Origin: Klebsiella phage KPP2018
Reading direction: 5' to 3' (one strand)
DNA: 64,000 nucleotides
Sequence record: NC_110934.1
The translations under genes were made by a program, and so were the position numbers. Position 1 is the stretch's first letter. Every line of letters begins with the position of its first letter. Below, piece by piece: positions 1 to 31,319 of this stretch. The notes beneath the pieces were generated by a model, which was not told the origin of the DNA, searched no databases, and saw only the letters and a list, made by a program, of their open reading frames with translations.

Positions 1-64
1 TCTTGTTCTGTCATGTTGCTCCCCCAGTTCAATTTATGTAATTATTATACAGAACTTTTGGAAA

Positions 65-352
65 CTAAGCAACTACATTTTTTAAGAATTTGATGCCTTT
101 CTTTCTCTTCTTATATTTCCACGTTAATGGATTCTGTCGATTATGAACACTTGAGATCTTTGTCTCATCAAAGTTCTTCAATATCATGTAATCACAAGAT
201 AGTTGTTCTAATGGAATGTGATCACCGTCAAAAGCGTGTACATAAGGTTGTTGACTAGCACGATAATGATAGACTTTGTTAATTCTACGTTTCAGCGACT
301 TATCCGCGCAGTAAATAAAGAAGTTTTCAGGATGCATCAGCAGCTCCTTCAA
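65..352 (-). CDS. hypothetical protein (95 aa); duplicated at 29529-29816
   Basis: ORF track; directly upstream (in transcription) of it lie tRNA genes, probably co-transcribed. Confidence 0.5.
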   Translation of the reverse strand: MKELLMHPENFFIYCADKSLKRRINKVYHYRASQQPYVHAFDGDHIPLEQLSCDYMILKNFDETKISSVHNRQNPLTWKYKKRKKGIKFLKNVVA

Positions 353-354
353 TT

Positions 355-429
355 TGGTGCACCCTGTTCGTATCGAACGAACCTCTCAAGCTCTTCAGGC
401 AAGCGCTAATCCATCTCAGCTAAAGGTGC
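355..429 (-). tRNA. tRNA, anticodon loop CUGAAGA (GAA, Phe-like); anticodon stem has two U-U mismatches
   Basis: Reverse complement GCACCUU..GUUCG-UUCGAUA-CGAAC-AGGGUGC-A-CCA: 7-bp acceptor, D-arm, T-arm and encoded CCA. Confidence 0.65.
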
Positions 430-435
430 AAATTT

Positions 436-512
436 TGGCAGGGGTAAAGGTATTCGAAACCTTTTCATGGGTTTTGGAGGCCCATTTGCAACCTATGCGT
501 ACCCCAATTATT
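436..512 (-). ncRNA. tRNA-like remnant (T-arm AAGGU-UUCGAAU-ACCUU, U1-U72 mismatch, 9-nt anticodon loop); possibly pseudo-tRNA
   Basis: T-arm and acceptor recognisable but D-arm and anticodon arm non-canonical. Confidence 0.3.
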
Positions 513-515
513 AAT

Positions 516-590
516 TGGCACACCCAACGAGGATCGAACTCGTGTTCCCACTGTGAAAGAGTGGTGTCCTAACCGCTAGACGATAGGTGC
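516..590 (-). tRNA. tRNA-Glu (UUC)
   Basis: Revcomp has acceptor, D-arm GUCUAGCGGUUAGGAC, anticodon stem CCACU/AGUGG with loop CUUUCAC, T-arm GAGUUCGAUCCUCG, CCA. Confidence 0.85.
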
Positions 591-597
591 ATTAAAT

Positions 598-685
598 TGG
601 TGGGGAAAGATGGAGTCGAACCACCCGAGTCGCAATGACAACTGATTTACAGTCAGCTCTGCTACCACTTACAGAATATTTCCCC
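598..685 (-). tRNA. tRNA-Tyr (GUA), type II with long variable arm
   Basis: Revcomp GGGGAAA..; anticodon loop CUGUAAA; long variable arm; T-arm GGUUCGACUCC; acceptor GGGGAAA/UUUCCCC; CCA. Confidence 0.8.
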
Positions 686-815
686 ATATTTAGAAGTATT
701 CAAAAATTCTCATTTAAACACTTTTAAATATGTTTCCAAATTAGATAAATATTATATCAAGTTTTATAGTATTGGGCAAGTCAAATTTTAAAGAACTTGC
801 CCAATGCTGTATTAG

Positions 816-1091
816 TTAGTCGAACTTAGGAGTGACAGTTAAGGAGAACGGAAGTTCAAAAACTTCTTCGCCCTCATCACTAATAGTGATTACACGACCT
901 TTAAGTTCAGACATTGAAATATCAATATCAGCTTTTGCATCTGGAGCCATGCCAGCTTCAATACATTTAGCTTTAATTTCCGGCAGAAGTTCTACATCGT
1001 AGAAATAAAGCCATTCAATCTCACCTTCCCAGCCTTCCCAGGATTTACAGATTGCACTTTCAATACCAGCAGCTATAACACGATTTTGCAT
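816..1091 (-). CDS. hypothetical protein (91 aa)
   Basis: ORF track; preceded by conserved early promoter/leader; duplicated at 30280-30555. Confidence 0.55.
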   Translation of the reverse strand: MQNRVIAAGIESAICKSWEGWEGEIEWLYFYDVELLPEIKAKCIEAGMAPDAKADIDISMSELKGRVITISDEGEEVFELPFSLTVTPKFD

Positions 1092-1160
1092 TCGTTAACT
1101 CCTTCATCAATTTATATAACTATTATATCAGAAATTTAAAGCAAAAGGCAAGTACATTTT
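1092..1160 (-). promoter_or_regulatory. Conserved T5-type early promoter (-35 TTGCCT, 17 bp, -10 TATAAT) plus conserved leader/RBS
   Basis: Minus-strand reading: ..TTGCCTtttgctttaaatttctgaTATAATagttatataaattgatgaaggag; member of >20-copy element family. Confidence 0.7.
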
Positions 1161-1181
1161 TAAAAATTCTGTTTGGAGGAG

Positions 1182-1388
1182 CTAAACTCCAGATTCTTCA
1201 GCCAAGTCTAGACTAATAAGAGATATAGCCATAATTGCTGCTCCGTGCTCTTTTTCTCCAGTCTCTTTAGCTAGAGTTATAATATCAAGAAATTGCTTAT
1301 GAAAATCTGCAACCTCTTGAGTTATACCTGCCTCAGCAATCATGCCTTTAAGCATGAAGCGTTGTGCGGTAATTTCAGGATTAGCCAT
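1182..1388 (-). CDS. hypothetical protein (68 aa)
   Basis: ORF track; start ATG overlaps stop of upstream small ORF (ATGGCTAA coupling). Confidence 0.5.
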   Translation of the reverse strand: MANPEITAQRFMLKGMIAEAGITQEVADFHKQFLDIITLAKETGEKEHGAAIMAISLISLDLAEESGV

Positions 1389-1548
1389 GTTGTTTCTCCA
1401 GTTTCATCTTTAATAGTCTACAAATAAAATCAATGTCTTCATCCGTGCCTAGATCTCTATCTTCAAGGGTTGCCTTGAAGTTTTTAGTCAATTCCATGAG
1501 AATAACTTCTCTAGAACGACGTGTTGGCGGAGGTGGATGTCTATACAT
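1381..1548 (-). CDS. hypothetical small protein (55 aa, MYRHPPPPTRRSREVILMEL...)
   Basis: Unlisted (<60 aa) ORF; stop overlaps start of 1182-1388 gene, typical translational coupling. Confidence 0.4.
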   Translation of the reverse strand: MYRHPPPPTRRSREVILMELTKNFKATLEDRDLGTDEDIDFICRLLKMKLEKQHG

Positions 1549-1563
1549 CTTATTTCCTTAATT

Positions 1564-1640
1564 TGGTAGGGGTGGTGGGATTCGAACCCACAAAACCTGA
1601 ATTTTAAGTCCAGTACCTATGCCAATTCGATTACACCCCC
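1564..1640 (-). tRNA. tRNA, anticodon loop CUUAAAA (UAA, Leu-like) but type-I length with short variable loop
   Basis: Revcomp GGGGGUG..acceptor pairs with CACCCCU; anticodon stem CUGGA/UUCAG; T-arm GUGGG-UUCGAAU-CCCAC; A-CCA. Confidence 0.6.
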
Positions 1641-1647
1641 ATGTAGT

Positions 1648-1836
1648 TTAGTCAATTACTTTTGAGGCTTCAAGGTAGTCGATATAGTGTACGTTTTCTA
1701 CCGTAATCATATAATCCGCCACTTTATCCATAGCTTGGGCTTCAGAGGTAGCTCTGGCTAACCTATATCCTTTTCTATACTCATCCGGGTATTCTCTATC
1801 TTGAATAAACACAACATAAACTATATATAGATCCAT
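1648..1836 (-). CDS. hypothetical protein (62 aa)
   Basis: ORF track. Confidence 0.45.
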   Translation of the reverse strand: MDLYIVYVVFIQDREYPDEYRKGYRLARATSEAQAMDKVADYMITVENVHYIDYLEASKVID

Positions 1837-1855
1837 TTGTGACCTCTATTTAATT

Positions 1856-1933
1856 TGGTGGCTCCCCGAGGATTCGAACCTACGTACCTTCCGGTTATGA
1901 GCCGGGTGCTCATACCATATGAGCTTGAGAACC
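1856..1933 (-). tRNA. tRNA-Met/Ile2 (CAU)
   Basis: Revcomp GGUUCUC..; anticodon stem CCGG with loop CUCAUAA; T-loop UUCGAAU (T-stem has mismatches); acceptor with two G-U pairs; CCA. Confidence 0.65.
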
Positions 1934-1939
1934 AAAATC

Positions 1940-2028
1940 TGGCGGAAGAAGTGGGAATCGAACCCACAAGGCTATATTTCAAACCGACAGATTAGCAATC
2001 TGCTGCAATACCATTATGCTATTCTTCC
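1940..2028 (-). tRNA. tRNA-Ser (GCU), type II
   Basis: Revcomp GGAAGAA..; anticodon stem GCAGA/UCUGU, loop UUGCUAA; long variable arm; T-arm GUGGG-UUCGAUU-CCCAC; G-CCA. Confidence 0.8.
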
Positions 2029-2049
2029 GAATTTATAAGATATATTATA

Positions 2050-2571
2050 TTAGAAATTTAGCTTCATAGCAAGAAAATTTTTCAAGTTTTCGGTAGACAT
2101 CTCATCCACATCTACAGGAGAAACAAATCCATTTAATTGTCTAGCAAACTTTTCACCAGCAGGATCATTGTCCCCAACAGCTACCAATTTAAAAGGTAGT
2201 AATTTCAGTTGCTTTAATAACGCTTTTCCTGGAGAAGAACCCAACATTGCCAGGGCTGGATAACCCGCATTATGTAATGCAACTGCCTTAAATACAGATT
2301 CAGCAATCAATACTACTTTTTCATCCCCATTGAGAGTTTCTAGTCCCCATACACACTGTGTAGTAGAATAAGTAAAGTATTTAGCTTCAAAGGGGCACTT
2401 ACCATGACCTTTTGGAGCAGAAGGATTATAAGTTTGATAGCCCCTCAACATTCCAGAGAAATCATACAACGGGACTGTTAGCCACCCTTCCGGACTTAAC
2501 CAGCAATGATATTTATCTGTATCAAATCCTCTAGATAAGAGGTGCTGTGTTAGCTCATCAACATTCATATT
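2050..2571 (-). CDS. Toprim-domain protein (DnaG-primase-like Toprim: E in IAES, DxD in AVGDNDPAG)
   Basis: ORF track 2050-2619; real start is Met17 (MNVDELTQ..) because the conserved TATAAT+ATAAATTTGAGAGAGG leader ends there. Confidence 0.6.
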   Translation of the reverse strand, partial: NMNVDELTQHLLSRGFDTDKYHCWLSPEGWLTVPLYDFSGMLRGYQTYNPSAPKGHGKCPFEAKYFTYSTTQCVWGLETLNGDEKVVLIAESVFKAVALHNAGYPALAMLGSSPGKALLKQLKLLPFKLVAVGDNDPAGEKFARQLNGFVSPVDVDEMSTENLKNFLAMKLNF

Positions 2572-2663
2572 TGGTTCCTCTCTCAAATTTATAGATATAT
2601 TATACAGAGAATTTAGCATTCAAGCAATCAAATTTTTTAACTTTTTAGAGGAAAATCATAGGG

Positions 2664-2686
2664 CACTTAAGGGTAGCAGATAAGTG
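2664..2686 (+). promoter_or_regulatory. Inverted repeat CACTTAAG-N7-CTTAAGTG-like (CACTTA..TAAGTG), candidate operator upstream of Gly-rich gene promoter
   Basis: cacttaagggtagcagataagtg: 6-bp arms are reverse complements. Confidence 0.3.
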
Positions 2687-2744
2687 GTGAGGACCAAAAT
2701 TTGTGACCCCACTAAAAATCCAGGGGCAATTTTTAAAGACCCCT

Positions 2745-2772
2745 TGACATTTTCGCTGGGGTAGTGTAAAGT
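2745..2772 (+). promoter_or_regulatory. sigma70-like promoter (TTGACA, 16 bp, TAAAGT) for the Gly-rich protein operon; copy 1
   Basis: cccTTGACAttttcgctggggtagtgTAAAGTatatg; not of the conserved phage early-promoter class. Confidence 0.55.
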
Positions 2773-2834
2773 ATATGTTATGGATGAGTGATCAAAGAGA
2801 CACACATTTTCTATATACTAGGAGGTGTCAAAAA

Positions 2835-3611
2835 ATGACAGAAGAAGTAGCTAAGAGTCCTGAGACCGTCGCTAGCGTTGCAGCAGAACTGCACCGTCAC
2901 GAGGAATCAGATAAGAAAAAGTGGGAGAAGGTCAGAGCCTACGAAGAGAAACATCGTGAACACGATGAAGATGATGAAGAAGATGACGATGATGAGTATT
3001 GTCATAAATATGGAAAACGTAAAATGCAAGAACCAGTAAACGTATTCACTAGTGGCTTCCCTGGCCTAATGGGTGGTTACCCAGCAAACGCAGGTGCTTT
3101 CGGTGGTGAAGGTATGGGACTATTCGGAGCTATCCTAATCGGTGCTCTATTAACAGGCGGATTCGGTGGTTTTGGTGGATTTGGTGGACGTGGTGTAGTT
3201 GGTGAAGGTACCGCAGTTGATGCAGTACTTCAGAACCAAGATACCGCTAGTATTCTAGCAGCTATTAACACTACTCGTACAGAAGCTAACCAGGGTACTG
3301 GAGCTGTTTTAAGCGCAGTTAACAATGGTTTTAGCCAGACATCCCAAAACCAGAGCCGTGATACTCAGTCTGTACTAACTACGATCTATGGTACGGGTGC
3401 TAATCTGTCTAATCAAATCTGCCAGGAAACTCGCAACGTTATTCAGGGTCAGTTCGATCTTTCTCGCCAGATTGATCAATCTTTCGCAGCTAACCAGATA
3501 GCTCGTGCACAAGATAAGTTTGATTCTGCACAGATCGCTTTCCAGCAGACTTTACAAACTAATAACCAGTTTGCCGCTGTTCAGGCTCAGATGTGTGCTA
3601 ACCAGTTATGA
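2835..3611 (+). pseudogene. Truncated copy (258 aa + 1 junction aa) of Gly-zipper/QN-rich membrane protein gene; truncated at repeat boundary 3605/3606
   Basis: RBS AGGAGG 9 nt before ATG 2835; identical to first 257 codons of the 331-aa gene at 32299-33291, then reads L-stop across the junction. Confidence 0.75.
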
Positions 3612-3711
3612 TAATGATCAAATCGATCAGCAAACGGCGGGCTTTTTGCTGGACACGCTGAAAGCGGAACACTGCACTAAAAAGCAAGCGGCAAAAATTA
3701 TTTTAATGTAA
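3607..3711 (+). pseudogene. Orphan C-terminal gene fragment (..YDNDQIDQQTAGFLLDTLKAEHCTKKQAAKIILM*) lacking N-terminus and start
   Basis: Open frame begins exactly at the repeat junction, ends at TAA 3709-3711, followed by hairpin GGGGCG-aaagtaa-CGCCCC. Confidence 0.5.
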
Positions 3712-3759
3712 TTAATAAAGGGGCGAAAGTAACGCCCCACTAACTAGGGAGTATTACAA

Positions 3760-3909
3760 ATGATTATTTTTCGAGCTATTCTGGCGGGTATCTTGGGCGC
3801 TATTTTATCTTTGTTTGCAATAGCTTTCGATGTTCACGCGGTTATTATCGGCGCGGGTATCGCTGCATTTTCTTATCTGCTGGGCTGCATGACTAGTAAA
3901 GGAGAATAA
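3760..3909 (+). CDS. small hydrophobic membrane protein (49 aa, MIIFRAILAGILGAILSLFAIAF...)
   Basis: Unlisted ORF; two predicted TM stretches; GC-richer than surrounding phage DNA. Confidence 0.5.
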   Translation: MIIFRAILAGILGAILSLFAIAFDVHAVIIGAGIAAFSYLLGCMTSKGE

Positions 3910-3911
3910 AA

Positions 3912-4124
3912 ATGATCCGCAACGTTTCTCTTGCACGTTCGAAAGGCTTTAAGCTGGTGGATGCTAACACGTTCGAGCGGGAAGATTGTAAAATCGAATA
4001 TGTAGCACGTAACAAAAATGCCTTTCGTGTTACTGAGAAAAAATTTGATAAGCGCGGCAACGTGATCGCTGAAACGGTTAAGCACTTTGCCACCTTTTAC
4101 GCTGCGTTTCGTGGGGTACTATGA
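3912..4124 (+). CDS. hypothetical protein (70 aa)
   Basis: ORF track; RBS GGAG 8 nt upstream; start 3 nt after previous stop. Confidence 0.55.
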   Translation: MIRNVSLARSKGFKLVDANTFEREDCKIEYVARNKNAFRVTEKKFDKRGNVIAETVKHFATFYAAFRGVL

Positions 4125-4261
4125 AAAGCGTTATCGTTATTGCCCTTGCAATGGTTGGCGGTTTTACCGCCACCTTATTCAAAAATGACCCCATTTCATT
4201 GGGGATCTTTATGTTATTATCTGGCTATCTAATTGGGAGGTTGTCAAATGGTTATTTATGA
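4121..4261 (+). CDS. small membrane protein (46 aa, MKSVIVIALAMVGGFTATLF...)
   Basis: Unlisted ORF; ATGA overlap with upstream stop; hydrophobic. Confidence 0.5.
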   Translation: MKSVIVIALAMVGGFTATLFKNDPISLGIFMLLSGYLIGRLSNGYL

Positions 4262-4592
4262 GGGCAATCGTTTTGTTGCTAATTGCCGTCCTGCATTATT
4301 AGCAAACTACTTAAATCAGCTTTCCCCAGCTTATAAGGGTGTTATTAATATTTATGAGGGCAAGGCGCATTATAAAATCAATGCGGTCGTTGCCCGTGAA
4401 CTAGCATTTCAATTTTTGACCTTTGCATCTTGTGATATTCAGGTCATGGGGGAAGCATTAATTGCAGAAAATGAAGATGATTTTATTAATATTTTCCGCA
4501 AGATATGCACCGAGCGGCTGATAATGAAAGGCGCGTATATTCAATCCACGGCTGATAGTATTGAAACAGCGTTTCGAAAGGTGGCGCAATGA
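4248..4592 (+). CDS. hypothetical protein (114 aa)
   Basis: ORF track 4233-4592; likely start ATG 4248 after RBS GGGAGG. Confidence 0.55.
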   Translation: MVIYEGNRFVANCRPALLANYLNQLSPAYKGVINIYEGKAHYKINAVVARELAFQFLTFASCDIQVMGEALIAENEDDFINIFRKICTERLIMKGAYIQSTADSIETAFRKVAQ

Positions 4593-4747
4593 AAAAGTTT
4601 TTAATAGCTGGCATGTTTCCGTTGTTGCCTTATGTAATTTGCTGGGCTTTATACGCTCATGGCGCTAGTGTTCCCGCTGTGGCTTCATTTGGTGTATCGG
4701 CGGGCTTTCTAGCTGGACTATTAGCAAGCGTATACTTACGCAAATAA
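4589..4747 (+). CDS. small membrane protein (52 aa, MKKFLIAGMFPLLPYVICWALYAHG...)
   Basis: Unlisted ORF; ATGA overlap with stop of previous gene. Confidence 0.5.
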   Translation: MKKFLIAGMFPLLPYVICWALYAHGASVPAVASFGVSAGFLAGLLASVYLRK

Positions 4748-4766
4748 TTAATAATGGGGCGTTATT

Positions 4767-4961
4767 ATGAGCAATAAAATTGTTGTAACCAAAATCAGTA
4801 CAATGGTTGATGTTTTTTACGTGCCCGATACGCCGGAAAACCGACAAGCGGTCGAGCGTGGAGAATATGATAAAGTGATTTATGATCACGATGGTTATTA
4901 TCAGCATTTAGTGGATTCCTACGGGGAGGAGGAGAAGATCACGCATCGACTACCAGACTAA
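4767..4961 (+). CDS. hypothetical protein (64 aa)
   Basis: ORF track; last gene before the non-coding repeat block. Confidence 0.5.
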   Translation: MSNKIVVTKISTMVDVFYVPDTPENRQAVERGEYDKVIYDHDGYYQHLVDSYGEEEKITHRLPD

Positions 4962-5000
4962 TAATCACGGGGCGCAACTATCAGGAAGTGCCCCCAATTC

Positions 5001-5025
5001 TCAAATGAGAATGATTCTCATTTGA
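5001..5025. promoter_or_regulatory. 25-bp palindrome TCAAATGAGAATGATTCTCATTTGA (Fur-box-like GATAATGATAATCATTATC relative)
   Basis: Perfect inverted repeat; half-site AATGAGAAT recurs in the downstream iterons. Confidence 0.4.
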
Positions 5026-5217
5026 CCGCGCCCGCGATGGTTAGCCTGCTAATGGTTAGGGTGTTACGTGTCGCCTTGTGTGATCGTTAGCGTGCTAACT
5101 AATTTTCAAGCCTCCTTCAATTTTGCCCTTGTTTTAGTATCCCCAACAAAATTAAACGCGTTAGAATGCGTTTGAGAGCGTTTTAACGCTATATTAGAAT
5201 TATTCACTGCGTAGGAA

Positions 5218-5237
5218 TACTGTATATTTATACAGTA
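5218..5237. promoter_or_regulatory. LexA (SOS) box TACTGTATATTTATACAGTA
   Basis: Perfect CTGT-N8-ACAG palindrome with AT-rich spacer matching E. coli LexA consensus. Confidence 0.55.
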
Positions 5238-5246
5238 GGATAAGCT

Positions 5247-5255
5247 GTGGATAAG
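5247..5255 (-). promoter_or_regulatory. DnaA box (TTATCCACA on minus strand)
   Basis: tgtggataa; second identical box at 5319-5327 and a 1-mismatch box (tgttgataa) at 5258-5266. Confidence 0.5.
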
Positions 5256-5318
5256 TCTGTTGATAACGCTTCAAAACGGCTAGAATTTTGTCAAGTCAAA
5301 TCGTGCTGTTAGTAAGTC

Positions 5319-5327
5319 TGTGGATAA
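5319..5327 (-). promoter_or_regulatory. DnaA box (TTATCCACA on minus strand), within repeated 13-mer AGTCTGTGGATAA
   Basis: Exact 9-mer consensus. Confidence 0.5.
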
Positions 5328-5350
5328 CTTAAATAACAGTGTTTCTCACT

Positions 5351-5530
5351 TCCGTTCTTAAATGAGAATCATTATCATTTGCATTTCACTATCTAACTAA
5401 TAATCATTCCGCTTTTTAAATGAGAATCATTCCGCTTTTTAAATGAGATTGATTCTCATTCCGCTTTTTAAATGCGAATTATTATCATTCTCATTCCGCT
5501 TTTTAAATGAGAATGATTCTTATTATCATT
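5351..5530. repeat. Iteron array A: 4-5 direct repeats of ~23-33 bp core CATTCCGCTTTTTAAATGAGAAT(CATT)
   Basis: cattccgctttttaaatgagaat repeated head-to-tail at 5405, 5428, 5455, 5488 with Fur-box-like AATCATTATCATT tails. Confidence 0.7.
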
Positions 5531-5538
5531 CGTATTTA

Positions 5539-5564
5539 GCGCAGGGCAATTGCCCTGCGCTTTT
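5539..5564. terminator. 22-bp perfect GC-rich palindrome GCGCAGGGCAATTGCCCTGCGC followed by TTTT (intrinsic-terminator-like or protein-binding site)
   Basis: Perfect dyad with 9-bp GC-rich arms and U-tract. Confidence 0.5.
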
Positions 5565-5787
5565 GTGCAAATCCGACATTGCTCCACGGGTGTTACGTGC
5601 GGGCGTGTATGTGCGAATCCGACAATCTTTGGTAGTGTGCAAATCCGACCCGAAAAATTTTTATAGTGTGCAAATCCGACAATGAATTTTCCCAAAAACT
5701 CCAGCAATCTCGAACTGCGTTCGAATCCTGTGGGGTATGTGCAAATTCGACACGGTTTTTCTAGGATTAAGATGTGCAAATCCGACA
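5565..5787. repeat. Iteron array B: six direct copies of GTGCAAATCCGACA (14 bp; variants GTGCGAATCCGACA, GTGCAAATTCGACA)
   Basis: Copies at 5565, 5611, 5637, 5668, 5739, 5774, irregular 26-71 bp spacing. Confidence 0.75.
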
Positions 5788-6098
5788 AGATTTTTGTGAC
5801 TTCGATTGGAGGGTGTGTGATTGTGTGGGTTTGGGGAGAAGATGAGAGAGCGAGAGAAAATAAGGGAAGAAACTGGAGGAGCAGCATGGGTGGCGTGTAA
5901 CGCCTGATTTGCTGCGTTTTTGGGGAAGAGTTGAGAAGATTTGGGTTAATTGGGCTTGGGGCGAGATAAAGTAAAATTTTATTAGCAAAATGGGGCAAAA
6001 TAGCTTGACAAGTGAAAATTCCTGTGGCTCTAAAAACTCAGGCAATCATGGGCCTTCGGCCCGAAATAATGCTGCTATTTTCAGGAGATTATATGTGC

Positions 6099-6165
6099 CT
6101 AAAAACTTAGGCATTTGTGCAAATCCGACCATAAATTTCTAGAAACACAATGTGCAAATCCGACA
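6099..6165. repeat. Palindrome TGCCTAAAAACTTAGGCA plus two further GTGCAAATCCGAC(A/C) iterons (6117, 6152)
   Basis: Same 14-mer as array B, 35 bp apart. Confidence 0.65.
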
Positions 6166-6204
6166 GTAATTTCTGGAAATGTGTTTTCAAAAAATGTCTC
6201 CTAG

Positions 6205-6295
6205 AAATAACCGCCCTCCCTATAACCGCCCTGTATTAAACCGCCTAGTATATGTTCCTAGAAACTTAGGAGAACCGCCCACTAGAAGCGTGATA
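6205..6295. repeat. Four direct repeats of AACCGCC(C) at ~13-22 bp spacing interleaved with CTAGAAA motifs
   Basis: ataaccgccctcc / ataaccgccctgt / taaaccgcctagt / gaaccgcccact. Confidence 0.5.
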
Positions 6296-6622
6296 TCTCG
6301 TGGGTATTTCGTGAGAACTCTGGAGTTTCTAGGAAAGTGTATGTGATCCTAGAGATGGGGAGCGGCAACAGGTGTATCATCTTGAACACAGATATTGCCT
6401 TTAAATATATTCGTATGTTTTAAAAGTAAATGATCCCCCATTTCATGTGAGATTCCTCGTGGGGCGCGTGAGTATTACGGAAGAACTCTAATATTGGCCC
6501 GCGCTAAGACTAGCCGCTATAGCACAGACGCAAATAGAGTTGTAATAATCATCGCCCCTAGAGTTCACAATAAGAGTTATTGTTAATCTATGAGATTATT
6601 ATAACATACATTTTTAATAACG

Positions 6623-7378
6623 TCAAGAAGATTTTGCTAACGTTTTTGGATTCTTCCTGGCTTTGAGATATATCCCTTTAGATGCTAGGTAAATATATGT
6701 TGCTAGGAATGAAGATTCTGATCCCGATTCCTCATAGGTTAACGTACCTCTAGGGTATTTATTTGTTTTAGGAGCATAGTTAAGCACAGCCGCAGTTAAT
6801 GATCCTAATCCTAGAACATCCGCAAGACGTCTAAAGGTATTCTCTTCATCATGAATAGCATAAAGAATGTTATCTTCAATATCCGTTAATGGAATCTTAC
6901 GGATATGAGATACTGCAATCCGTGCTATCATAGCTCCAATTGTTTTATTAATATCCTCGAAAGAAACACTCTCCATATATTTTAGAGGGGGAAGATGGTC
7001 ATATTTACATTTCTTAGGCGGAATAAGAAGTTGTTCAGGGTAAGCCTCTAGTGCCTGACGAACGTTTGCTTCTGGATATGTTGGCAAAGGTTCATCTATA
7101 ATAACATGTAAAAAGTTAGCTCTATGCCCTTTAGCAGTTGGATCTAAAGACTTGAGTACTTTATTCATATCCACATATGAATATGCTAGGTCTGCTTGAG
7201 GAGCATTAATATCAAACTTAATCTTCTTGCCCTCCCATTTAGCAGGGAACATCTCACAAACAAACATTACTGCATGTTTGACGTCTGGCTCTAGCTCTGA
7301 TAGACATTTGTGATCTGCTGTTACTGCTAAAGCGAGTATATTCTTAAATTTATTAGCTTCTTCAATCATATATCCCAT
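6623..7378 (-). CDS. hypothetical early protein (251 aa)
   Basis: ORF track; first of a long minus-strand early gene block. Confidence 0.6.
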   Translation of the reverse strand: MGYMIEEANKFKNILALAVTADHKCLSELEPDVKHAVMFVCEMFPAKWEGKKIKFDINAPQADLAYSYVDMNKVLKSLDPTAKGHRANFLHVIIDEPLPTYPEANVRQALEAYPEQLLIPPKKCKYDHLPPLKYMESVSFEDINKTIGAMIARIAVSHIRKIPLTDIEDNILYAIHDEENTFRRLADVLGLGSLTAAVLNYAPKTNKYPRGTLTYEESGSESSFLATYIYLASKGIYLKARKNPKTLAKSS

Positions 7379-7707
7379 GCCTGCTGACTAGTATCACTAA
7401 CTTGTGTCTTTTTCTCTCTTCGTGGTTTAAAAGTTCCTGTAGTATTACTTTTACTAGGTTCTAATTTATACCACAGCATTCCTAGCTGGTTAACCATATG
7501 AGCAACATTTCTAGGGGTCAATGGAGGTAGGGATTCACAGTTTGATATCTCTATTAATATATTAAATAATTCTGTCTCTTTAGCCTTACTGTTTACTACC
7601 ACCACGTATTCTAATGTCTCTACCTCAGAATCCTCGTCTTTATAGTAAAGGCTAAGAGTAATTAAATTTTCCCCAGCAGGAGTTATTTTTGTTTTACCAA
7701 ATATCAT
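7366..7707 (-). CDS. hypothetical protein (113 aa)
   Basis: ORF track; overlaps neighbours by a few nt. Confidence 0.55.
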   Translation of the reverse strand: MIFGKTKITPAGENLITLSLYYKDEDSEVETLEYVVVVNSKAKETELFNILIEISNCESLPPLTPRNVAHMVNQLGMLWYKLEPSKSNTTGTFKPRREKKTQVSDTSQQAWDI

Positions 7708-8321
7708 TAATTACCTCTCTTATCTTCATTAAGCGCAGCTCCCAACGCCTCCATAATAGCATCTTCTAAACTTCCATGTTTACTAGGATCATTAAAATGA
7801 ATAGCATAAACAGAACTCCTAGAAACTCCAGCATCCGCAGGTGCTACGCTTCGCATATCAGATTCAAAAGCTTCTTGAGTATGCTTTAACTGTACAGAAG
7901 GGCCGTAATCTTCACCAAACTTGTATGACTGCGTACTACTTATCACACCCCCACAAGGAACATTGTGCATATCCGACATTAATCTTTTATCGGAGTTATT
8001 CAGCATTGCGATTGGCCCTGACTGCCACGGATCTCGAATAGTTACTGGAGTACTGGGGCGGTTCACTTCAGCCTTCACAAGTTTGTACCCTGCATCGATT
8101 AATGCGTTAATTAGATTATCAGCTGGGATGCGAGCCTTGCCAAAAATCTTACGAGCATCTTCGAGCTTATCCTCAAGATCTTTACATGCTCTAAGGTCAG
8201 TGTGTGCAAATGTTAGCTTCATAGATTTAAATTGTACAGTAGCAGTTAAATCTTTAAAGCTATAATCCCATGTGTTCAGTTCATGATCCGGTACTACTTG
8301 AATAGGTTGTTGTGCAAACAT
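7707..8321 (-). CDS. hypothetical protein (204 aa)
   Basis: ORF track. Confidence 0.6.
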   Translation of the reverse strand: MFAQQPIQVVPDHELNTWDYSFKDLTATVQFKSMKLTFAHTDLRACKDLEDKLEDARKIFGKARIPADNLINALIDAGYKLVKAEVNRPSTPVTIRDPWQSGPIAMLNNSDKRLMSDMHNVPCGGVISSTQSYKFGEDYGPSVQLKHTQEAFESDMRSVAPADAGVSRSSVYAIHFNDPSKHGSLEDAIMEALGAALNEDKRGN

Positions 8322-8506
8322 TATATATTCTCCAGTTTGTCTAACAGTTTATGAGCTGCGATGTTATATTGAAAGAGTTCATTATTGAGAATTTCATTCT
8401 CACAGGTTAACTCTAGATTCTTAGTATTGAGGCGACTGCAAATCAGTATCAGTCCCAGGATTATTAGGAGTGAGCCTCCTAGTAATACAAGAAGTAATGT
8501 TTCCAT
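8321..8506 (-). CDS. small membrane protein (61 aa)
   Basis: ORF track; single hydrophobic helix. Confidence 0.5.
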   Translation of the reverse strand: METLLLVLLGGSLLIILGLILICSRLNTKNLELTCENEILNNELFQYNIAAHKLLDKLENI

Positions 8507-8739
8507 TATTTAATTCCCATGTAACGTTTGAGATATCCGATGAAGTCTTCCGCTGTATGCTCTACGCTACCTTGAGCTACGAATAGCTTGAGAGCTTCAC
8601 GTTGTAGTTTGAGAGCAGCTAACTCACCCCGTAATTTTATCAGATCTTCTGCTAGTTCTCTAGCTCTACGCATAATAACAAAAGATACAAGTACTACGAT
8701 GAATAACATAACTACTAAAATAATTGCTATGATTTCCAT
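8506..8739 (-). CDS. membrane protein (77 aa) with C-terminal coiled coil
   Basis: ORF track; N-terminal TM helix IIAIILVVMLFIVVLVSFVIM. Confidence 0.5.
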   Translation of the reverse strand: MEIIAIILVVMLFIVVLVSFVIMRRARELAEDLIKLRGELAALKLQREALKLFVAQGSVEHTAEDFIGYLKRYMGIK

Positions 8740-9017
8740 ATTAACATCCAGCTTTTATCACACATTTGGGCATGGTCTATCAGTTCATTCATTGATGTAT
8801 TGTTATCATAAATGCACTCTAGTATATACCTTCTATCAAATTCGTCAACCAAATATTCTACGTTATTTATTACTACTTTATACAGATCTGGGACTAGAGA
8901 GCATGTATTTGGTACGGGGCGACTGCTTAAGTCTATTTCGTTTTTACCCCATTCTGTTTTAAATAGTTTGTTACTAAGTGCTGCTAATGGGTTTGACCAC
9001 ACAATATAGCTACTCAC
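8727..9017 (-). CDS. hypothetical protein (96 aa)
   Basis: ORF track. Confidence 0.5.
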   Translation of the reverse strand: MSSYIVWSNPLAALSNKLFKTEWGKNEIDLSSRPVPNTCSLVPDLYKVVINNVEYLVDEFDRRYILECIYDNNTSMNELIDHAQMCDKSWMLIWKS

Positions 9018-9453
9018 TATTTATCTCCCTTCTTAACTTTGAAAACTTATTATACCAAACTATATGATTATCGTCAATTACAAATTTATGATAACATGCT
9101 GGCACGGTATAAGTTCCATAATCCGTGACACGCTGCACAACCTTGTGTGCACACAGTCGACAACCATGCCCTTCTAAATGAGATCTAGCAGTTTGCCAGT
9201 AATACCCTTCATGATCTGGGCAATAGATCTCGACTTGCTGTTGCATTGTTTTATAATTTACACGCTCATACCCAAAGAAAGCTCCATGAACTGCAACAGC
9301 TTTCTTGATAAATATAAGGTTTAGTGCTTCTTGCTGAAAGTCGGGATGTAGCTGCTTAATCTTAGTTCTATTAATAGATCCATCCGATTTGATAAACCTA
9401 TTTATTGGGAAGTTGTTAGCTTCCTCGATTAGTAATTCATTTACTTTTTCTCT
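9010..9453 (-). CDS. Cys/His-rich putative zinc-binding protein (possible HNH-like nuclease; ..YCPDHEGYYWQTARSHLEGHGCRLCAH..)
   Basis: ORF track 9010-9558; shortened to Met36 to avoid 100-nt overlap with next gene. Confidence 0.4.
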   Translation of the reverse strand, partial: REKVNELLIEEANNFPINRFIKSDGSINRTKIKQLHPDFQQEALNLIFIKKAVAVHGAFFGYERVNYKTMQQQVEIYCPDHEGYYWQTARSHLEGHGCRLCAHKVVQRVTDYGTYTVPACYHKFVIDDNHIVWYNKFSKLRREINSE

Positions 9454-9457
9454 CATA

Positions 9458-9682
9458 TTAGATATTCTCACACCTAAGGTAGAAACATTCGTAAGCATCA
9501 CCAGTAAACTCTTTACCTTGTAGTATACATTTAGCCTGGTCTTCTGGTACTCCGGCATCTAATAATTGTTGTTTACTTGGCTTTTCAGCGAATACCTTTA
9601 CAAAATATTCACCATCCTGATTATACTCATTTATATCTCTAGTAAGGACATATACTTGCATTTGAAATTCCTTGAAACACAA
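9458..9682 (-). CDS. hypothetical protein (74 aa)
   Basis: ORF track. Confidence 0.45.
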   Translation of the reverse strand: MCFKEFQMQVYVLTRDINEYNQDGEYFVKVFAEKPSKQQLLDAGVPEDQAKCILQGKEFTGDAYECFYLRCENI

Positions 9683-9715
9683 AAGGCCAGAACAATTAAG
9701 TCCTGGCCTCTAGAA

Positions 9716-10153
9716 TTAATGAAGTTGTTTACCACTTCTTAACATAGTGGCCGTTTCCATAAGATTTAACGTTGTATCACGCTTTTTGATTTGTTTGTCG
9801 AGTTCATCGGTGCGTTTGCCAATGTAAGCGTTAATAGCCATATTCATAGCTGAGGCGAGATCTTCTTTGGTTATCTCTTCATCATCTAAGGCTAATTTAG
9901 CCAAAGAATCGAACGCAATAGAAAGTCCTATAAGATCTGAGGTTTCACTAGCTAAGATGGGATCAATATTATCTATTGTTACTTCTAACATAGAGTTAAC
10001 AATATCTTCTCCGTCTACTAGACCAGATTCAATATTACTCTCCCATTCCTTCATCTGCTCCAGCAATGGATTTTTCTTTTCTGTCATGGTAGAGATTTCC
10101 TGTGTCAGTTGGTAAGAAGGACGATTGAGCTTTAGGTGGATGTTGTTTAGCAA
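9716..10153 (-). CDS. hypothetical acidic protein (145 aa; true start probably internal Met)
   Basis: ORF track; overlaps next ORF. Confidence 0.5.
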   Translation of the reverse strand: MLNNIHLKLNRPSYQLTQEISTMTEKKNPLLEQMKEWESNIESGLVDGEDIVNSMLEVTIDNIDPILASETSDLIGLSIAFDSLAKLALDDEEITKEDLASAMNMAINAYIGKRTDELDKQIKKRDTTLNLMETATMLRSGKQLH

Positions 10154-10496
10154 TCCAGTTAAGAATCAGCACACGACTAGGAACAATATCAGTGTTGTAC
10201 CAGAAATCGTGAACCCATTGACGAGCATCCTCAAACTTACCAAATTTATATGCTTTCTTAAACAATTTAAACCCAAAACAATCTGGTGTAAAGTCTACTT
10301 CACGATACTGAACTACTTTAGAACCGGTTAGGTCTTGGATTGCTGCATTAATTTCTGTATGAGAGAATTTTGTTTCGTGAAACTTATTAAAGAATCGGTA
10401 GTTGAAGCGTCCGTTCGTTTCGACAAACAACTGGATAAAGAGATCGTTAAATTGATTATCAAACCAGTAATTCTGTAGTTGTTGTAGTGCTGTCAT
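10035..10496 (-). CDS. hypothetical protein (153 aa)
   Basis: ORF track. Confidence 0.55.
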   Translation of the reverse strand: MTALQQLQNYWFDNQFNDLFIQLFVETNGRFNYRFFNKFHETKFSHTEINAAIQDLTGSKVVQYREVDFTPDCFGFKLFKKAYKFGKFEDARQWVHDFWYNTDIVPSRVLILNWIAKQHPPKAQSSFLPTDTGNLYHDRKEKSIAGADEGMGE

Positions 10497-29459: not shown

Positions 29460-29528
29460 ATTTATCTTGTTCTGTCATGTTGCTCCCCCAGTTCAATTTA
29501 TGTAATTATTATACAGAACTTTTGGAAA

Positions 29529-29816
29529 CTAAGCAACTACATTTTTTAAGAATTTGATGCCTTTCTTTCTCTTCTTATATTTCCACGTTAATGGATTCTG
29601 TCGATTATGAACACTTGAGATCTTTGTCTCATCAAAGTTCTTCAATATCATGTAATCACAAGATAGTTGTTCTAATGGAATGTGATCACCGTCAAAAGCG
29701 TGTACATAAGGTTGTTGACTAGCACGATAATGATAGACTTTGTTAATTCTACGTTTCAGCGACTTATCCGCGCAGTAAATAAAGAAGTTTTCAGGATGCA
29801 TCAGCAGCTCCTTCAA
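29529..29816 (-). CDS. hypothetical protein (95 aa), repeat copy 2 of 65-352
   Basis: Identical to copy 1. Confidence 0.5.
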   Translation of the reverse strand: MKELLMHPENFFIYCADKSLKRRINKVYHYRASQQPYVHAFDGDHIPLEQLSCDYMILKNFDETKISSVHNRQNPLTWKYKKRKKGIKFLKNVVA

Positions 29817-29818
29817 TT

Positions 29819-29893
29819 TGGTGCACCCTGTTCGTATCGAACGAACCTCTCAAGCTCTTCAGGCAAGCGCTAATCCATCTCAGCTAAAGGTGC
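29819..29893 (-). tRNA. tRNA (GAA, Phe-like), copy 2
   Basis: Identical to 355-429. Confidence 0.65.
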
Positions 29894-29979
29894 AAATTTT
29901 GGCAGGGGTAAAGGTATTCGAAACCTTTTCATGGGTTTTGGAGGCCCATTTGCAACCTATGCGTACCCCAATTATTAAT

Positions 29980-30054
29980 TGGCACACCCAACGAGGATCG
30001 AACTCGTGTTCCCACTGTGAAAGAGTGGTGTCCTAACCGCTAGACGATAGGTGC
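29980..30054 (-). tRNA. tRNA-Glu (UUC), copy 2
   Basis: Identical to 516-590. Confidence 0.85.
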
Positions 30055-30061
30055 ATTAAAT

Positions 30062-30149
30062 TGGTGGGGAAAGATGGAGTCGAACCACCCGAGTCGCAAT
30101 GACAACTGATTTACAGTCAGCTCTGCTACCACTTACAGAATATTTCCCC
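30062..30149 (-). tRNA. tRNA-Tyr (GUA), copy 2
   Basis: Identical to 598-685. Confidence 0.8.
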
Positions 30150-30279
30150 ATATTTAGAAGTATTCAAAAATTCTCATTTAAACACTTTTAAATATGTTTC
30201 CAAATTAGATAAATATTATATCAAGTTTTATAGTATTGGGCAAGTCAAATTTTAAAGAACTTGCCCAATGCTGTATTAG

Positions 30280-30555
30280 TTAGTCGAACTTAGGAGTGAC
30301 AGTTAAGGAGAACGGAAGTTCAAAAACTTCTTCGCCCTCATCACTAATAGTGATTACACGACCTTTAAGTTCAGACATTGAAATATCAATATCAGCTTTT
30401 GCATCTGGAGCCATGCCAGCTTCAATACATTTAGCTTTAATTTCCGGCAGAAGTTCTACATCGTAGAAATAAAGCCATTCAATCTCACCTTCCCAGCCTT
30501 CCCAGGATTTACAGATTGCACTTTCAATACCAGCAGCTATAACACGATTTTGCAT
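30280..30555 (-). CDS. hypothetical protein (91 aa), copy 2
   Basis: Identical to 816-1091. Confidence 0.55.
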   Translation of the reverse strand: MQNRVIAAGIESAICKSWEGWEGEIEWLYFYDVELLPEIKAKCIEAGMAPDAKADIDISMSELKGRVITISDEGEEVFELPFSLTVTPKFD

Positions 30556-30645
30556 TCGTTAACTCCTTCATCAATTTATATAACTATTATATCAGAAATT
30601 TAAAGCAAAAGGCAAGTACATTTTTAAAAATTCTGTTTGGAGGAG

Positions 30646-30852
30646 CTAAACTCCAGATTCTTCAGCCAAGTCTAGACTAATAAGAGATATAGCCATAATT
30701 GCTGCTCCGTGCTCTTTTTCTCCAGTCTCTTTAGCTAGAGTTATAATATCAAGAAATTGCTTATGAAAATCTGCAACCTCTTGAGTTATACCTGCCTCAG
30801 CAATCATGCCTTTAAGCATGAAGCGTTGTGCGGTAATTTCAGGATTAGCCAT
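30646..30852 (-). CDS. hypothetical protein (68 aa), copy 2
   Basis: Identical to 1182-1388. Confidence 0.5.
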   Translation of the reverse strand: MANPEITAQRFMLKGMIAEAGITQEVADFHKQFLDIITLAKETGEKEHGAAIMAISLISLDLAEESGV

Positions 30853-31027
30853 GTTGTTTCTCCAGTTTCATCTTTAATAGTCTACAAATAAAATCAATGT
30901 CTTCATCCGTGCCTAGATCTCTATCTTCAAGGGTTGCCTTGAAGTTTTTAGTCAATTCCATGAGAATAACTTCTCTAGAACGACGTGTTGGCGGAGGTGG
31001 ATGTCTATACATCTTATTTCCTTAATT

Positions 31028-31104
31028 TGGTAGGGGTGGTGGGATTCGAACCCACAAAACCTGAATTTTAAGTCCAGTACCTATGCCAATTCGATTACAC
31101 CCCC
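31028..31104 (-). tRNA. tRNA (UAA, Leu-like, type-I length), copy 2
   Basis: Identical to 1564-1640. Confidence 0.6.
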
Positions 31105-31111
31105 ATGTAGT

Positions 31112-31300: not shown

Positions 31301-31319
31301 TTGTGACCTCTATTTAATT

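What the first reader, a model, noticed from the sequence alone, without database searches (positions are those of the whole stretch)
5218..5237. Consensus LexA SOS box inside the phage repeat region
TACTGTATATTTATACAGTA is a textbook CTGT-N8-ACAG LexA operator with an AT-rich spacer. It lies 10 bp from a DnaA box. A LexA site in a virulent phage suggests coupling of a phage process to host SOS status: transcription toward the small membrane genes, or injection/replication control.
Basis: seen in the sequence. Interest (0 to 1): 0.55.

Follow-up and report, generated by a model that had tools for sequence, protein, structure and literature searches.

The report
LexA site in T5 injection-stop region
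A near-perfect binding site for the bacterial DNA-damage repressor LexA sits beside DnaA boxes in the non-coding "injection stop" region of this T5-like virulent phage. The same site is kept in every relative examined, from E. coli to Vibrio phages, which offers a simple genetic handle on the old puzzle of T5's two-step DNA injection.

Summary
TACTGTATATTTATACAGTA lies at 5218-5237 and matches the LexA consensus at 19 of 20 positions. It scores 29.4 bits on a matrix built from 18 published E. coli SOS boxes, higher than all 18. The next best site in the 64-kb window scores 14.4.

The window is a T5-like phage. The site lies in the untranslated injection-stop (iss) region of the terminal repeat, at the inner end of Davison's IRD'-spacer-IRC' element, 8 bp from a pair of DnaA boxes.

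The box is conserved across the family. All 26 T5-like loci that span the region carry it, usually as two inward-facing copies 3-4 kb apart. Nine non-Tequintavirus Demerecviridae (Klebsiella, Pectobacterium, Pantoea, Proteus, Vibrio) have 18 sites of at least 18 bits where 0.13 are expected. CTGTAT half-sites are nearly invariant, and the changes are one-sided, so selection acts on sequence rather than on hairpin pairing.

No accessible paper links LexA to this region. The function is inferred: most likely an SOS-sensitive block to RNA polymerase at the boundary of the first-step-transfer DNA, or part of a host-protein complex there. No conserved promoter was found.

The parts
5218..5237 (.). 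LexA operator (SOS box) TACTGTATATTTATACAGTA. It is the inner, palindromic end of the IRD' arm of the iss element.
   Evidence: Searches give the exact sequence; 29.4 bits, above all 18 published E. coli boxes, with 0 of 200 shuffles reaching it. Searches show conservation at the homologous position in all T5-like loci.
5238..5245 (+). Conserved linker GGATAAGC between the LexA box and the first DnaA box. It supplies a third GATAA unit in 11-12 bp phase with the two DnaA boxes.
   Evidence: GGATAA(C/G)C follows the box in Tequinta-, Epseptima-, Sugarland- and Hongcheonvirus and in Pantoea phage AAS21. Mean information content is 0.99 bit per column.
5246..5266 (-). DnaA box pair 1: TTATCCACA (5246-5254, consensus), a 3-bp gap, then TTATCAACA (5258-5266, variant).
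   Evidence: (pattern TTWTNCACA). The pairing with a 3-bp gap is as described by Davison.
5307..5327 (-). DnaA box pair 2: a degenerate box (5307-5315, TGTTAGTAA on the plus strand), a 3-bp gap, then consensus TTATCCACA (5319-5327).
   Evidence: T5 has TGTTGATAA gtc TGTGGATAA at the same place.
5200..5208 (+). DnaA-box-like TTATTCACT (8 of 9 to TTATTCACA), inverted relative to box 5246-5254, so the LexA box is bracketed by opposed DnaA-type boxes.
   Evidence: In the DNA fold of 5195-5275, TTATTCAC pairs with GTGGATAA around the LexA palindrome (z = -4.1). This feature is seen only in the Tequinta/Epseptimavirus versions.
5157..5200 (+). Four phased units of 10-11 bp (cgcGTTAGAAT / gcGTTTGAGAG / cGTTTTAACGC / TATATTAGAAT) upstream of the box. 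The partner that binds them is unknown.
   Evidence: GCGTTnTAGAG-like units recur upstream of the box in all genera, including Vibrio (GCCTTACAGAG, three copies).
5172..5200 (+). Promoter-like site TTGAGA-17-TAGAAT (10 of 12). It would place the LexA box at about +10 to +30.
   Evidence: The -35 element is not kept in T5. Only a YAGNAT hexamer 15-18 nt upstream of the box recurs. Status: inconclusive.
5328..5349 (+). Outer tail of the element (IRC' arm), cttaaataacagtgtttctcac.
   Evidence: conserved in T5, Sugarlandvirus and Pantoea phage AAS21.

Best explanation
The 20-mer is a genuine, selectively maintained, very high-affinity operator for the host LexA repressor. It is the innermost protein-binding site of a conserved composite module: phased 10-11-bp units, then the LexA box, an 8-bp linker, a DnaA box pair, a spacer and further DnaA boxes. 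Complete T5-like terminal repeats carry this module as two inverted copies with the LexA ends facing each other across a pre-early operon. The copy in this window is the one inside the injection stop signal.

Proposed mechanism. When first-step-transfer (FST) DNA enters an undamaged cell, a LexA dimer occupies the box and DnaA occupies its neighbours. LexA then acts in the only way it is known to act, as a steric block to RNA polymerase. It either represses a weak outward-facing promoter 15-25 bp upstream or roadblocks read-through from the pre-early operon into the iss and the DNA not yet injected. The block is lifted when LexA is cleaved. That happens in hosts that are already SOS-induced, or after A1-dependent breakdown of host DNA activates RecA.

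What is shown: the sequence, its rank against native sites, family-wide conservation, the module anatomy and the one-sided substitution pattern. What is inferred: LexA occupancy (about 0.85 likely) and the consequence for RNA polymerase and SOS coupling (about 0.35-0.4 likely).
For: - The site matches the consensus at 19 of 20 positions and scores 29.4 bits, above all 18 published E. coli SOS boxes. The rest of the 64-kb window stays at the chance level of 14.4.
- T5 itself has TACTGTATAAATATACAGTA at 9409-9428 inside the annotated iss, plus a second copy with an intact CTGT-N8-ACAG core at 6211-6230.
- All 26 T5-like loci that span the region carry a site of at least 18 bits.
- Nine Demerecviridae from other genera, with A1 identity down to about 31%, have 18 such sites in 135 kb where 0.13 are expected. 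An outgroup phage with only an A1 homologue has none.
- Over 20 distinct boxes the half-site CTGTAT is nearly invariant (37-40 of 40), while positions 1-2 and 9-10 vary. Nineteen of the 20 are imperfect palindromes with one-sided changes such as CTGG or CCAG, which native LexA sites also show.
- The asymmetric centre occurs in both orientations (TT or AA) among close relatives, as expected for a symmetric dimer.
- 125 tandem DnaA-box contexts from unrelated metagenome contigs have no LexA box beside them, so the pairing is specific to T5-like phages.
- An A2/T6-conserving -10-like hexamer lies 15-18 nt upstream of the box in most modules. It is TAGAAT here and a perfect TATAAT in the second copy of T5 and of L004.
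- By Davison's coordinates the element lies inside the FST shear point, so it is in the cell during the pause.
Against: - No binding or expression data exist.
- No sigma-70 promoter is conserved in position across the modules, and the 10-of-12 promoter of this window loses its -35 in T5.
- The experimentally mapped pre-early promoters are P11, PH22 and PD/E20, none of them in the iss.
- No gene or known RNA lies downstream of the iss copy.
- All hosts of the phages sampled are Gammaproteobacteria, a class I recall (not checked here) as sharing the CTGT-N8-ACAG LexA motif. Conservation therefore cannot separate host LexA from a conserved phage protein with the same specificity.
- From my own recollection (not checked here), T5 plates on recA strains, so LexA cleavage cannot be essential for growth.
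- The information-content profile of the box columns is inflated because sites were picked by score.
Confidence: 0.45

Rival explanations
1. Architectural role. LexA, with DnaA and possibly Fur, assembles a stable host-protein complex on the last few hundred base pairs of FST DNA. The complex helps hold or stop the DNA at the injection stop signal, or loops the two inverted modules together. Transcription is not the target. This extends Davison's model of DnaA-box membrane anchoring.
For: - The site lies inside the annotated iss and inside the shear point.
- It is always 8-9 bp from phased DnaA boxes.
- Fur-box-like sites cluster on the outer side of the module in seven genera.
- No gene or conserved promoter lies downstream.
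- The two modules form an inward-facing inverted pair.
Against: - LexA is not known to act architecturally or to bridge DNA.
- Proteins bound to DNA already inside the cytoplasm do not obviously stop DNA that is still in the channel.
- The second copy lies 3-4 kb from the stop point.
- Some Vibrio and Proteus copies have a LexA box with no adjacent DnaA boxes (L019 9911 and L020 10939).
Confidence: 0.2
2. The palindrome is the operator of a conserved phage protein, for example the dimeric DNA-binding protein A2 that is required for second-step transfer. Its likeness to the LexA box is convergence or mimicry.
For: - The box co-occurs with A1 and A2 in every Demerecviridae sampled and is absent from the outgroup that has only an A1 homologue.
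- No promoter is evident.
- All sampled hosts are Gammaproteobacteria, which I recall as sharing one LexA motif (not checked here), so host tracking cannot be tested.
Against: - The match extends over the whole 20-bp LexA consensus, including the flanking TA, and beats every native E. coli site.
- The tolerated variants (CTGG, CCAG, a variable centre, variable positions 1-2) are those seen in native LexA sites.
- A2 and nine other pre-early proteins show no LexA-like or any other Pfam DNA-binding domain.
- Whatever else binds, host LexA would be expected to occupy such a site.
Confidence: 0.12
3. The site works through DNA structure or recombination. The palindrome extrudes as a hairpin or cruciform, or marks the end-point of the inverted repeats that allow the intervening operon to flip. 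No sequence-specific repressor is involved.
For: - The region is full of palindromes.
- Single-stranded DNA of 5195-5275 folds with z = -4.1.
- The operon between the two modules is inverted in Sugarlandvirus relative to T5.
Against: - Nineteen of 20 distinct boxes are imperfect palindromes.
- Arm changes are one-sided, with only one symmetric case, so pairing is not what is conserved.
- A 9-bp AT-rich stem is weak.
- Structure alone does not explain a 19-of-20 match to the LexA consensus.
Confidence: 0.08
4. The module is an oriC-like replication or unwinding element. The DnaA array opens the AT-rich centre of the palindrome, and the likeness to a LexA box is incidental or provides negative control of initiation.
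For: The module has phased DnaA boxes in direct orientation immediately next to an AT-rich 8-mer. Davison notes the resemblance to oriC.
Against: - T5 origins were mapped near the genome centre, and the replication genes are not expressed during FST (Davison).
- There is no GATC cluster and there are no 13-mer repeats in 5140-5360.
- The AT-rich stretch is only 8-10 bp long.
Confidence: 0.05

Closest known systems
Chromosomal SOS boxes of E. coli (recA, umuDC, sulA, sbmC, istR and others)
   Same: It has the same 20-bp palindromic motif, matching the consensus at 19 of 20 positions. Its score exceeds all 18 published sites used as reference, and it shows the same pattern of tolerated variation.
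   Different: It has no demonstrable promoter or downstream gene. It lies in a non-coding region of a virulent phage and is always coupled to DnaA boxes.
IRD'-spacer-IRC' / IRC-spacer-IRD elements of the T5 injection stop region (Davison, bioRxiv 10.1101/866236; names from Wang et al. 2005)
   Same: This is the same DNA. The box is the inner end of the IRD' arm, next to the paired DnaA boxes that Davison describes in 25 phages.
   Different: Davison's text describes palindromes and DnaA boxes and does not contain 'SOS' or 'promoter'. A search also lists it with 0 occurrences of 'LexA'. Reading the arm end as a LexA operator is not in any paper I could search. Davison 2015, Wang 2005 and Heusterspreute 1987 could not be read.
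LexA operators on temperate phages and other mobile elements (coliphage 186 tum, CTXphi rstA, GIL01, colicin promoters). These examples come from my own knowledge and were not checked here.
   Same: A mobile element borrows host LexA so that a step in its life cycle responds to DNA damage.
   Different: Those sites overlap defined promoters and control lysogeny switches or toxin genes. T5-like phages are strictly virulent, and here no promoter or regulated gene is identified.
uvrB control region of E. coli, which combines a LexA box with a DnaA box (my own knowledge, not checked here)
   Same: LexA and DnaA sites are combined in one control region.
   Different: It has a single DnaA box and a defined promoter set. 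Here the DnaA boxes form a phased array, and the module occurs as an inverted pair.

Membership tests
Gammaproteobacterial LexA operator (SOS box) | CTGT-N8-ACAG core with an AT-rich spacer | tested here: met
   CTGTATATTTATACAG at 5220-5235.
Gammaproteobacterial LexA operator (SOS box) | Similarity to the 20-bp consensus within the range of verified sites | tested here: met
   It matches at 19 of 20 positions and scores 29.4 bits. The 18 published sites range from 13.2 to 28.2 bits.
Gammaproteobacterial LexA operator (SOS box) | Position overlapping or just downstream of a promoter | tested here: inconclusive
   TTGAGA-17-TAGAAT (10 of 12) would put the box at about +10 to +30 in this window. 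The -35 is not conserved, and no promoter is conserved in position across the modules. The known pre-early promoters lie elsewhere.
Gammaproteobacterial LexA operator (SOS box) | Conservation at the orthologous position in related genomes | tested here: met
   It is present in 26 of 26 T5-like loci that span the region. Distant genera have 18 sites where 0.13 are expected.
Gammaproteobacterial LexA operator (SOS box) | LexA binding in vitro or in vivo, and SOS-dependent derepression | not testable with these tools
   This needs EMSA or footprinting, ChIP, and a reporter with and without mitomycin C.
T5 injection-stop element (IRD'-spacer-IRC') | Location in the untranslated region at the inner end of the terminal repeat, between the pre-early operon and the early genes | tested here: met
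   It is homologous to T5 9409-9428, inside the misc_feature 'injection stop signal' 9140-10149.
T5 injection-stop element (IRD'-spacer-IRC') | Two pairs of DnaA or DnaA* boxes, each pair separated by 3 bp | tested here: met
   Pairs at 5246-5254/5258-5266 and 5307-5315/5319-5327.
T5 injection-stop element (IRD'-spacer-IRC') | An inverted partner element (IRC-spacer-IRD) 2-4 kb to the left | tested here: not met
   It is absent from this window because homology to the terminal repeat starts only at 3606. It is present in T5 and in all relatives with enough flank.
LexA-controlled switches of temperate phages (186 tum, CTXphi, GIL01 type) | The operator overlaps the promoter of an antirepressor or lytic-switch gene in a temperate element | tested here: not met
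   The phage is virulent (Demerecviridae), there is no ORF downstream of the box, and the small ORFs nearby are transcribed toward it.
oriC-type replication origin | A DnaA-box cluster together with an AT-rich 13-mer unwinding element and GATC clusters | tested here: not met
   The DnaA array is present, but there is no GATC and there are no 13-mer repeats in 5140-5360. T5 origins were mapped elsewhere according to Davison.

The most novel reading that the evidence does not exclude
LexA is the timer or licence for second-step transfer. A LexA (plus DnaA) complex on the iss keeps the remaining DNA from being drawn in. Drawing-in might depend, for example, on read-through RNA polymerase acting as a motor, as in T7. 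A1-dependent host-DNA breakdown would activate RecA, and LexA would be cleaved. From my own recollection, LexA cleavage takes minutes, similar to the reported 3-5 min pause. The block would then be lifted. This would explain why the same gene, A1, is needed both for host DNA degradation and for second-step transfer. With the neighbouring DnaA and Fur-like sites, it would make the FST pause a checkpoint that reads host physiology.
Probability: 0.07. Interest if true: 0.9.

Novelty: new member of a known kind. Interest (0 to 1): 0.6.

Why it matters
The cis-acting injection stop signal of T5 has been described for decades only as a bewildering array of repeats and palindromes, to which DnaA boxes were later added. 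Papers from 2023 to 2026 still say that functional studies are lacking.

Recognising that the best-conserved 20 bp of this region across the whole family is a consensus operator for a well-understood host repressor turns part of the puzzle into simple experiments. These include lexA(Def), lexA(Ind-) and recA hosts, box mutants, and LexA ChIP on arrested FST DNA. It would also be an unusual case of a strictly virulent phage family keeping LexA sites. If so, even lytic phages read the host SOS state at the earliest moment of infection.

Tried and rejected
- **Protein-anchored search.** A search of IMG/VR with the first early gene returned only 3 loci. A DNA anchor there gave 8 loci.
- **Metagenome scan.** The single metagenome scan used the anchor GGATAASCTGKKGATAAGTC, which turned out to be a widespread tandem DnaA-box motif. 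Only 2 of 127 hits were T5-like. It remained useful as a negative control.
- **First matrix.** My first LexA matrix was built from sites recalled from memory. I replaced it with one built from the 18 sites printed in PMC3009722, and the conclusions did not change.
- **Promoter hypothesis.** A systematic scan of 21 modules in both directions found no positionally conserved -35/-10 pair, so I kept the promoter only as one of two ways LexA could block RNA polymerase.
- **Leftward small RNA.** A possible leftward transcript (minus-strand TATACA-16-AATAAT followed by a terminator-like hairpin at 5173-5154) was not pursued. The promoter scores 9 of 12, and Rfam finds nothing there.
- **Other databases.** Pfam scans of A2 and nine other T5 pre-early proteins found no LexA-like DNA-binding domain. 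A plasmid database search with the module found nothing.
- **Host-tracking test.** I considered looking for alphaproteobacterial LexA motifs next to A1 homologues in Rhizobium and Caulobacter phages. I dropped it because those phages are not T5-like and the 8-base motif has no statistical power.
- **Literature.** Searches for LexA or SOS together with T5, T5-like, Tequintavirus, Demerecviridae or the box sequence itself found nothing relevant. One search was wasted on a bad phrase. The Davison 2015 review could not be retrieved. Wang 2005 and Heusterspreute 1987 were not looked up.

Full report
**Observation.** The sequence TACTGTATATTTATACAGTA is at window 5218-5237 exactly as reported. Its CTGT-N8-ACAG core is at 5220-5235. 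It differs at one central base from the LexA consensus TACTGTATATATATACAGTA, which is printed as the SOS-box consensus in PMC3009722 Table 4.

I built a symmetric weight matrix from the 18 E. coli SOS boxes listed in that table. The window site scores 29.4 bits. That is higher than every one of the 18 native sites (best 28.2, recA 22.5) and close to the consensus (30.8). The next best site in the 64-kb window scores 14.4, which equals the mean maximum of 200 shuffles (14.6). No shuffle exceeded 24.8. An earlier matrix built from sites I recalled from memory gave the same picture. The three other CTGT-N8-ACAG matches in the window score at chance level. The nearest consensus DnaA box is at 5246-5254, so the gap is 8 bp rather than 10.

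**Where it is.** The window is a T5-like phage. Hundreds of Tequintavirus and Epseptimavirus records match the region at 85-96% identity. In T5 (NC_005859) the homologous site is TACTGTATAAATATACAGTA at 9409-9428. That lies inside the left terminal repeat (1-10219) and inside the feature annotated 'injection stop signal' (9140-10149).

Davison's comparison of 25 T5-like phages names this DNA IRD'-spacer-IRC'. It is a 131-bp element with two pairs of DnaA boxes, and an inverted partner (IRC-spacer-IRD) lies about 3 kb to the left. By his coordinates the element lies roughly 200-300 bp inside the calculated shear point of the first-step-transfer (FST) DNA. The LexA box is the inner end of the IRD' arm.

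T5's partner element carries CACTGTATAAATATACAGGG at 6211-6230, with an intact CTGT-N8-ACAG core and a score of 21.4 bits. In this window the partner is missing for a trivial reason. Homology to the terminal repeat begins only at 3606, and window 1-3605 is an exact duplicate of 29465-33069.

**Conservation.** Every T5-like locus that I fetched and that spans the region has a site of at least 18 bits at the homologous place, 26 of 26. The only locus without one, L008, is truncated before the site. Loci with enough flank have two sites 3-4 kb apart, and Yersinia phage phiR201 has a duplicated one.

I then used T5 protein A1 to find distant members of the family. I fetched FST-proximal DNA from Klebsiella (Sugarlandvirus), Pectobacterium (Hongcheonvirus), Pantoea, Proteus (Novosibvirus) and four Vibrio lineages, with A1 identity down to about 31%. 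All nine phages have at least one strong box. Together they have 18 sites of at least 18 bits in 135 kb, where 0.13 are expected from shuffles. Shewanella phage 1/4 has an A1 homologue but no T5-like organisation, and it has none.

The flanks diverge beyond recognition between genera, while the box persists. The high information content of the box columns is partly circular, because sites were chosen by score. The independent evidence is that such sites exist at all, at that place, in every genome.

**Pattern of change.** Over 20 distinct boxes, half-site positions 3-8 (CTGTAT) are nearly invariant (37-40 of 40). Positions 1-2 and 9-10 vary. Nineteen of the 20 boxes are imperfect palindromes. 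Changes in the arms are one-sided (CTGG, CCAG, CC at positions 1-2), with a single symmetric case. Native E. coli sites show the same variants. The asymmetric centre occurs as TT or AA among close relatives. This is what selection for recognition by a symmetric protein dimer predicts. It is not what selection for a hairpin predicts.

**Anatomy of the module.** Printing every copy in one orientation shows a common order:
- three or four phased 10-11-bp units of the type GCGTTnTAGAG (window 5157-5200);
- a YAGNAT hexamer 15-18 nt before the box (TAGAAT at 5195-5200);
- the LexA box;
- the linker GGATAA(C/G)C;
- two DnaA boxes 3 bp apart (5246-5266);
- a spacer of about 40 bp;
- further DnaA boxes (5307-5327) and a conserved tail.

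In this phage and its close relatives a DnaA-like TTATTCACT (5200-5208) mirrors the first DnaA box across the LexA palindrome. In every two-copy locus the left module points left and the right module points right, so the LexA ends face each other across the intervening operon. That operon is inverted in Sugarlandvirus relative to T5 and Pantoea phage AAS21, while the modules keep their orientation.

As a negative control, 125 tandem DnaA-box contexts from unrelated metagenome contigs have nothing like a LexA box beside them.

**How it most likely works.** Such a site should be occupied by LexA as soon as FST DNA enters an uninduced cell. This is an inference from its rank above all native operators, not a measurement. 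LexA is known to act only by blocking RNA polymerase.

Two arrangements are possible here. In the first, the box sits at about +10 to +30 of a weak outward promoter. This window has TTGAGA-17-TAGAAT at 10 of 12, and the second copies of T5 and L004 have a perfect TATAAT 15 nt before the box. In the second, LexA roadblocks read-through from the pre-early operon, which ends at 4961. Either way the block would be relieved when LexA is cleaved.

I rate LexA occupancy at about 0.85 and this consequence at 0.35-0.4. Several points count against it. No promoter is conserved in position. The mapped pre-early promoters are P11, PH22 and PD/E20. Nothing coding or known as an RNA lies downstream.

**Rivals.**
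- *Architectural host-protein complex at the stop signal.* This extends Davison's DnaA model. It fits the location and the neighbouring DnaA and Fur-like sites. However, LexA has no known architectural role, and some copies lack DnaA boxes.
- *A phage protein such as A2 as the real binder.* Conservation cannot exclude this, because all sampled hosts are Gammaproteobacteria, a class I recall (not checked here) as sharing one LexA motif. Pfam finds no domain in A2, and the full-length match to the host consensus argues for LexA.
- *A purely structural or recombinational role.* The one-sided substitutions weaken this.
- *An oriC-like origin.* The region lacks GATC clusters and 13-mers, and this reading conflicts with the mapped T5 origins.

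**What is known.** Searches of the held literature for LexA or SOS together with T5, T5-like, Tequintavirus or Demerecviridae, and for the box sequences themselves, found no paper making this link. Davison's 2020 text does not contain 'SOS' or 'promoter', and a search lists it with 0 occurrences of 'LexA'. Papers from 2023 and 2026 still describe the iss as repeats, palindromes and DnaA boxes without functional study. I could not read Heusterspreute 1987, Wang 2005 or Davison 2015, so earlier recognition cannot be excluded.

The site is a canonical LexA operator in a new place, so I rate it a new member of a known kind. Its fixed coupling to a DnaA array, in inverted pairs on the FST DNA of a virulent phage family, is the unusual part.

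**Verdict.** Interest is 0.6. The site itself is ordinary in kind, but it is conserved across the family, apparently unreported, and located in a cis-acting region whose mechanism has been open for decades. It suggests direct experiments.

Noticed in passing
window 1-3605 and 29465-33069; junction at 3605/3606: The first 3605 bases of the window are a 100% identical direct copy of 29465-33069 (tRNA-Phe/Glu/Tyr/Leu/Ser cluster and neighbours). Relatives align only from 3606 onward. The left part of the terminal repeat (dmp, A1, A2 and the second LexA/DnaA module) is therefore not upstream of the finding. This is either an assembly mis-join or a real rearrangement.
   Followed up: partly
window 5002-5530 (for example 5004-5022, 5361-5379, 5445-5460, 5471-5492, 5509-5530): The repeated palindromes AAATGAGAATCATTCTCATTT resemble Fur boxes. 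Eleven of the 12 window matches to the Fur core AATGATAATCATTATC (up to 3 mismatches; best copy 1 mismatch) lie here, where 2.0 are expected in the whole window. Similar clusters lie on the outer side of the module in T5, Sugarlandvirus, Pantoea phage AAS21, Proteus phage 1, Pectobacterium phage DU_PP_V and Vibrio phage SJ1, but not in three other Vibrio phages. From my own knowledge (not checked here), T5's receptor FhuA is Fur-regulated.
   Followed up: partly
window 5157-5200; also upstream of the box in L014-L021: Phased 10-11-bp units of the type GCGTTnTAGAG (GCCTTACAGAG in Vibrio) precede the LexA box in all genera. They look like iterons for an unidentified protein, or a bent or UP-like element.
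   Followed up: no
window about 5575-5800 and beyond: There are at least six copies of GTGCAAATCCGACA (Davison's DRD repeats) at irregular spacing of about 25-70 bp, to the right of the module. Their function is unknown.
   Followed up: no
L016 3037-3972, L017 3434-4348 versus T5 6495-7505 and L018 8255-9196: The operon between the two inverted LexA/DnaA modules (T5.011 homologue) is flipped in Klebsiella Sugarlandvirus relative to T5 and Pantoea phage AAS21, while the modules keep their inward-facing orientation. Pectobacterium phage DU_PP_V has yet another gene order. The modules may be inversion end-points.
   Followed up: partly
L019 9911-9930 and L020 10939-10958: Proteus phage 1 and Vibrio phage 234P1 each have a strong LexA box with no adjacent DnaA boxes. 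The two share a right flank (ACGCATACGC...CTATT), which suggests a second type of module.
   Followed up: no
L035, L047, L076, L108, L110, L112, L113, L119 (marine and freshwater metagenome contigs): Contigs not shown to be related to T5 carry aaatgagaatcattcgcatttgg right next to tandem DnaA boxes (GGATAACCTGTGGATAAGTC). The pairing of a Fur-like palindrome with DnaA boxes therefore appears outside T5-like phages, without a LexA box.
   Followed up: no
L145 3218-3237 and 3319-3338 (Yersinia phage phiR201): Two identical consensus-level LexA boxes lie 101 bp apart. This matches the IRD' duplication that Davison mentions for phiR201.
   Followed up: no
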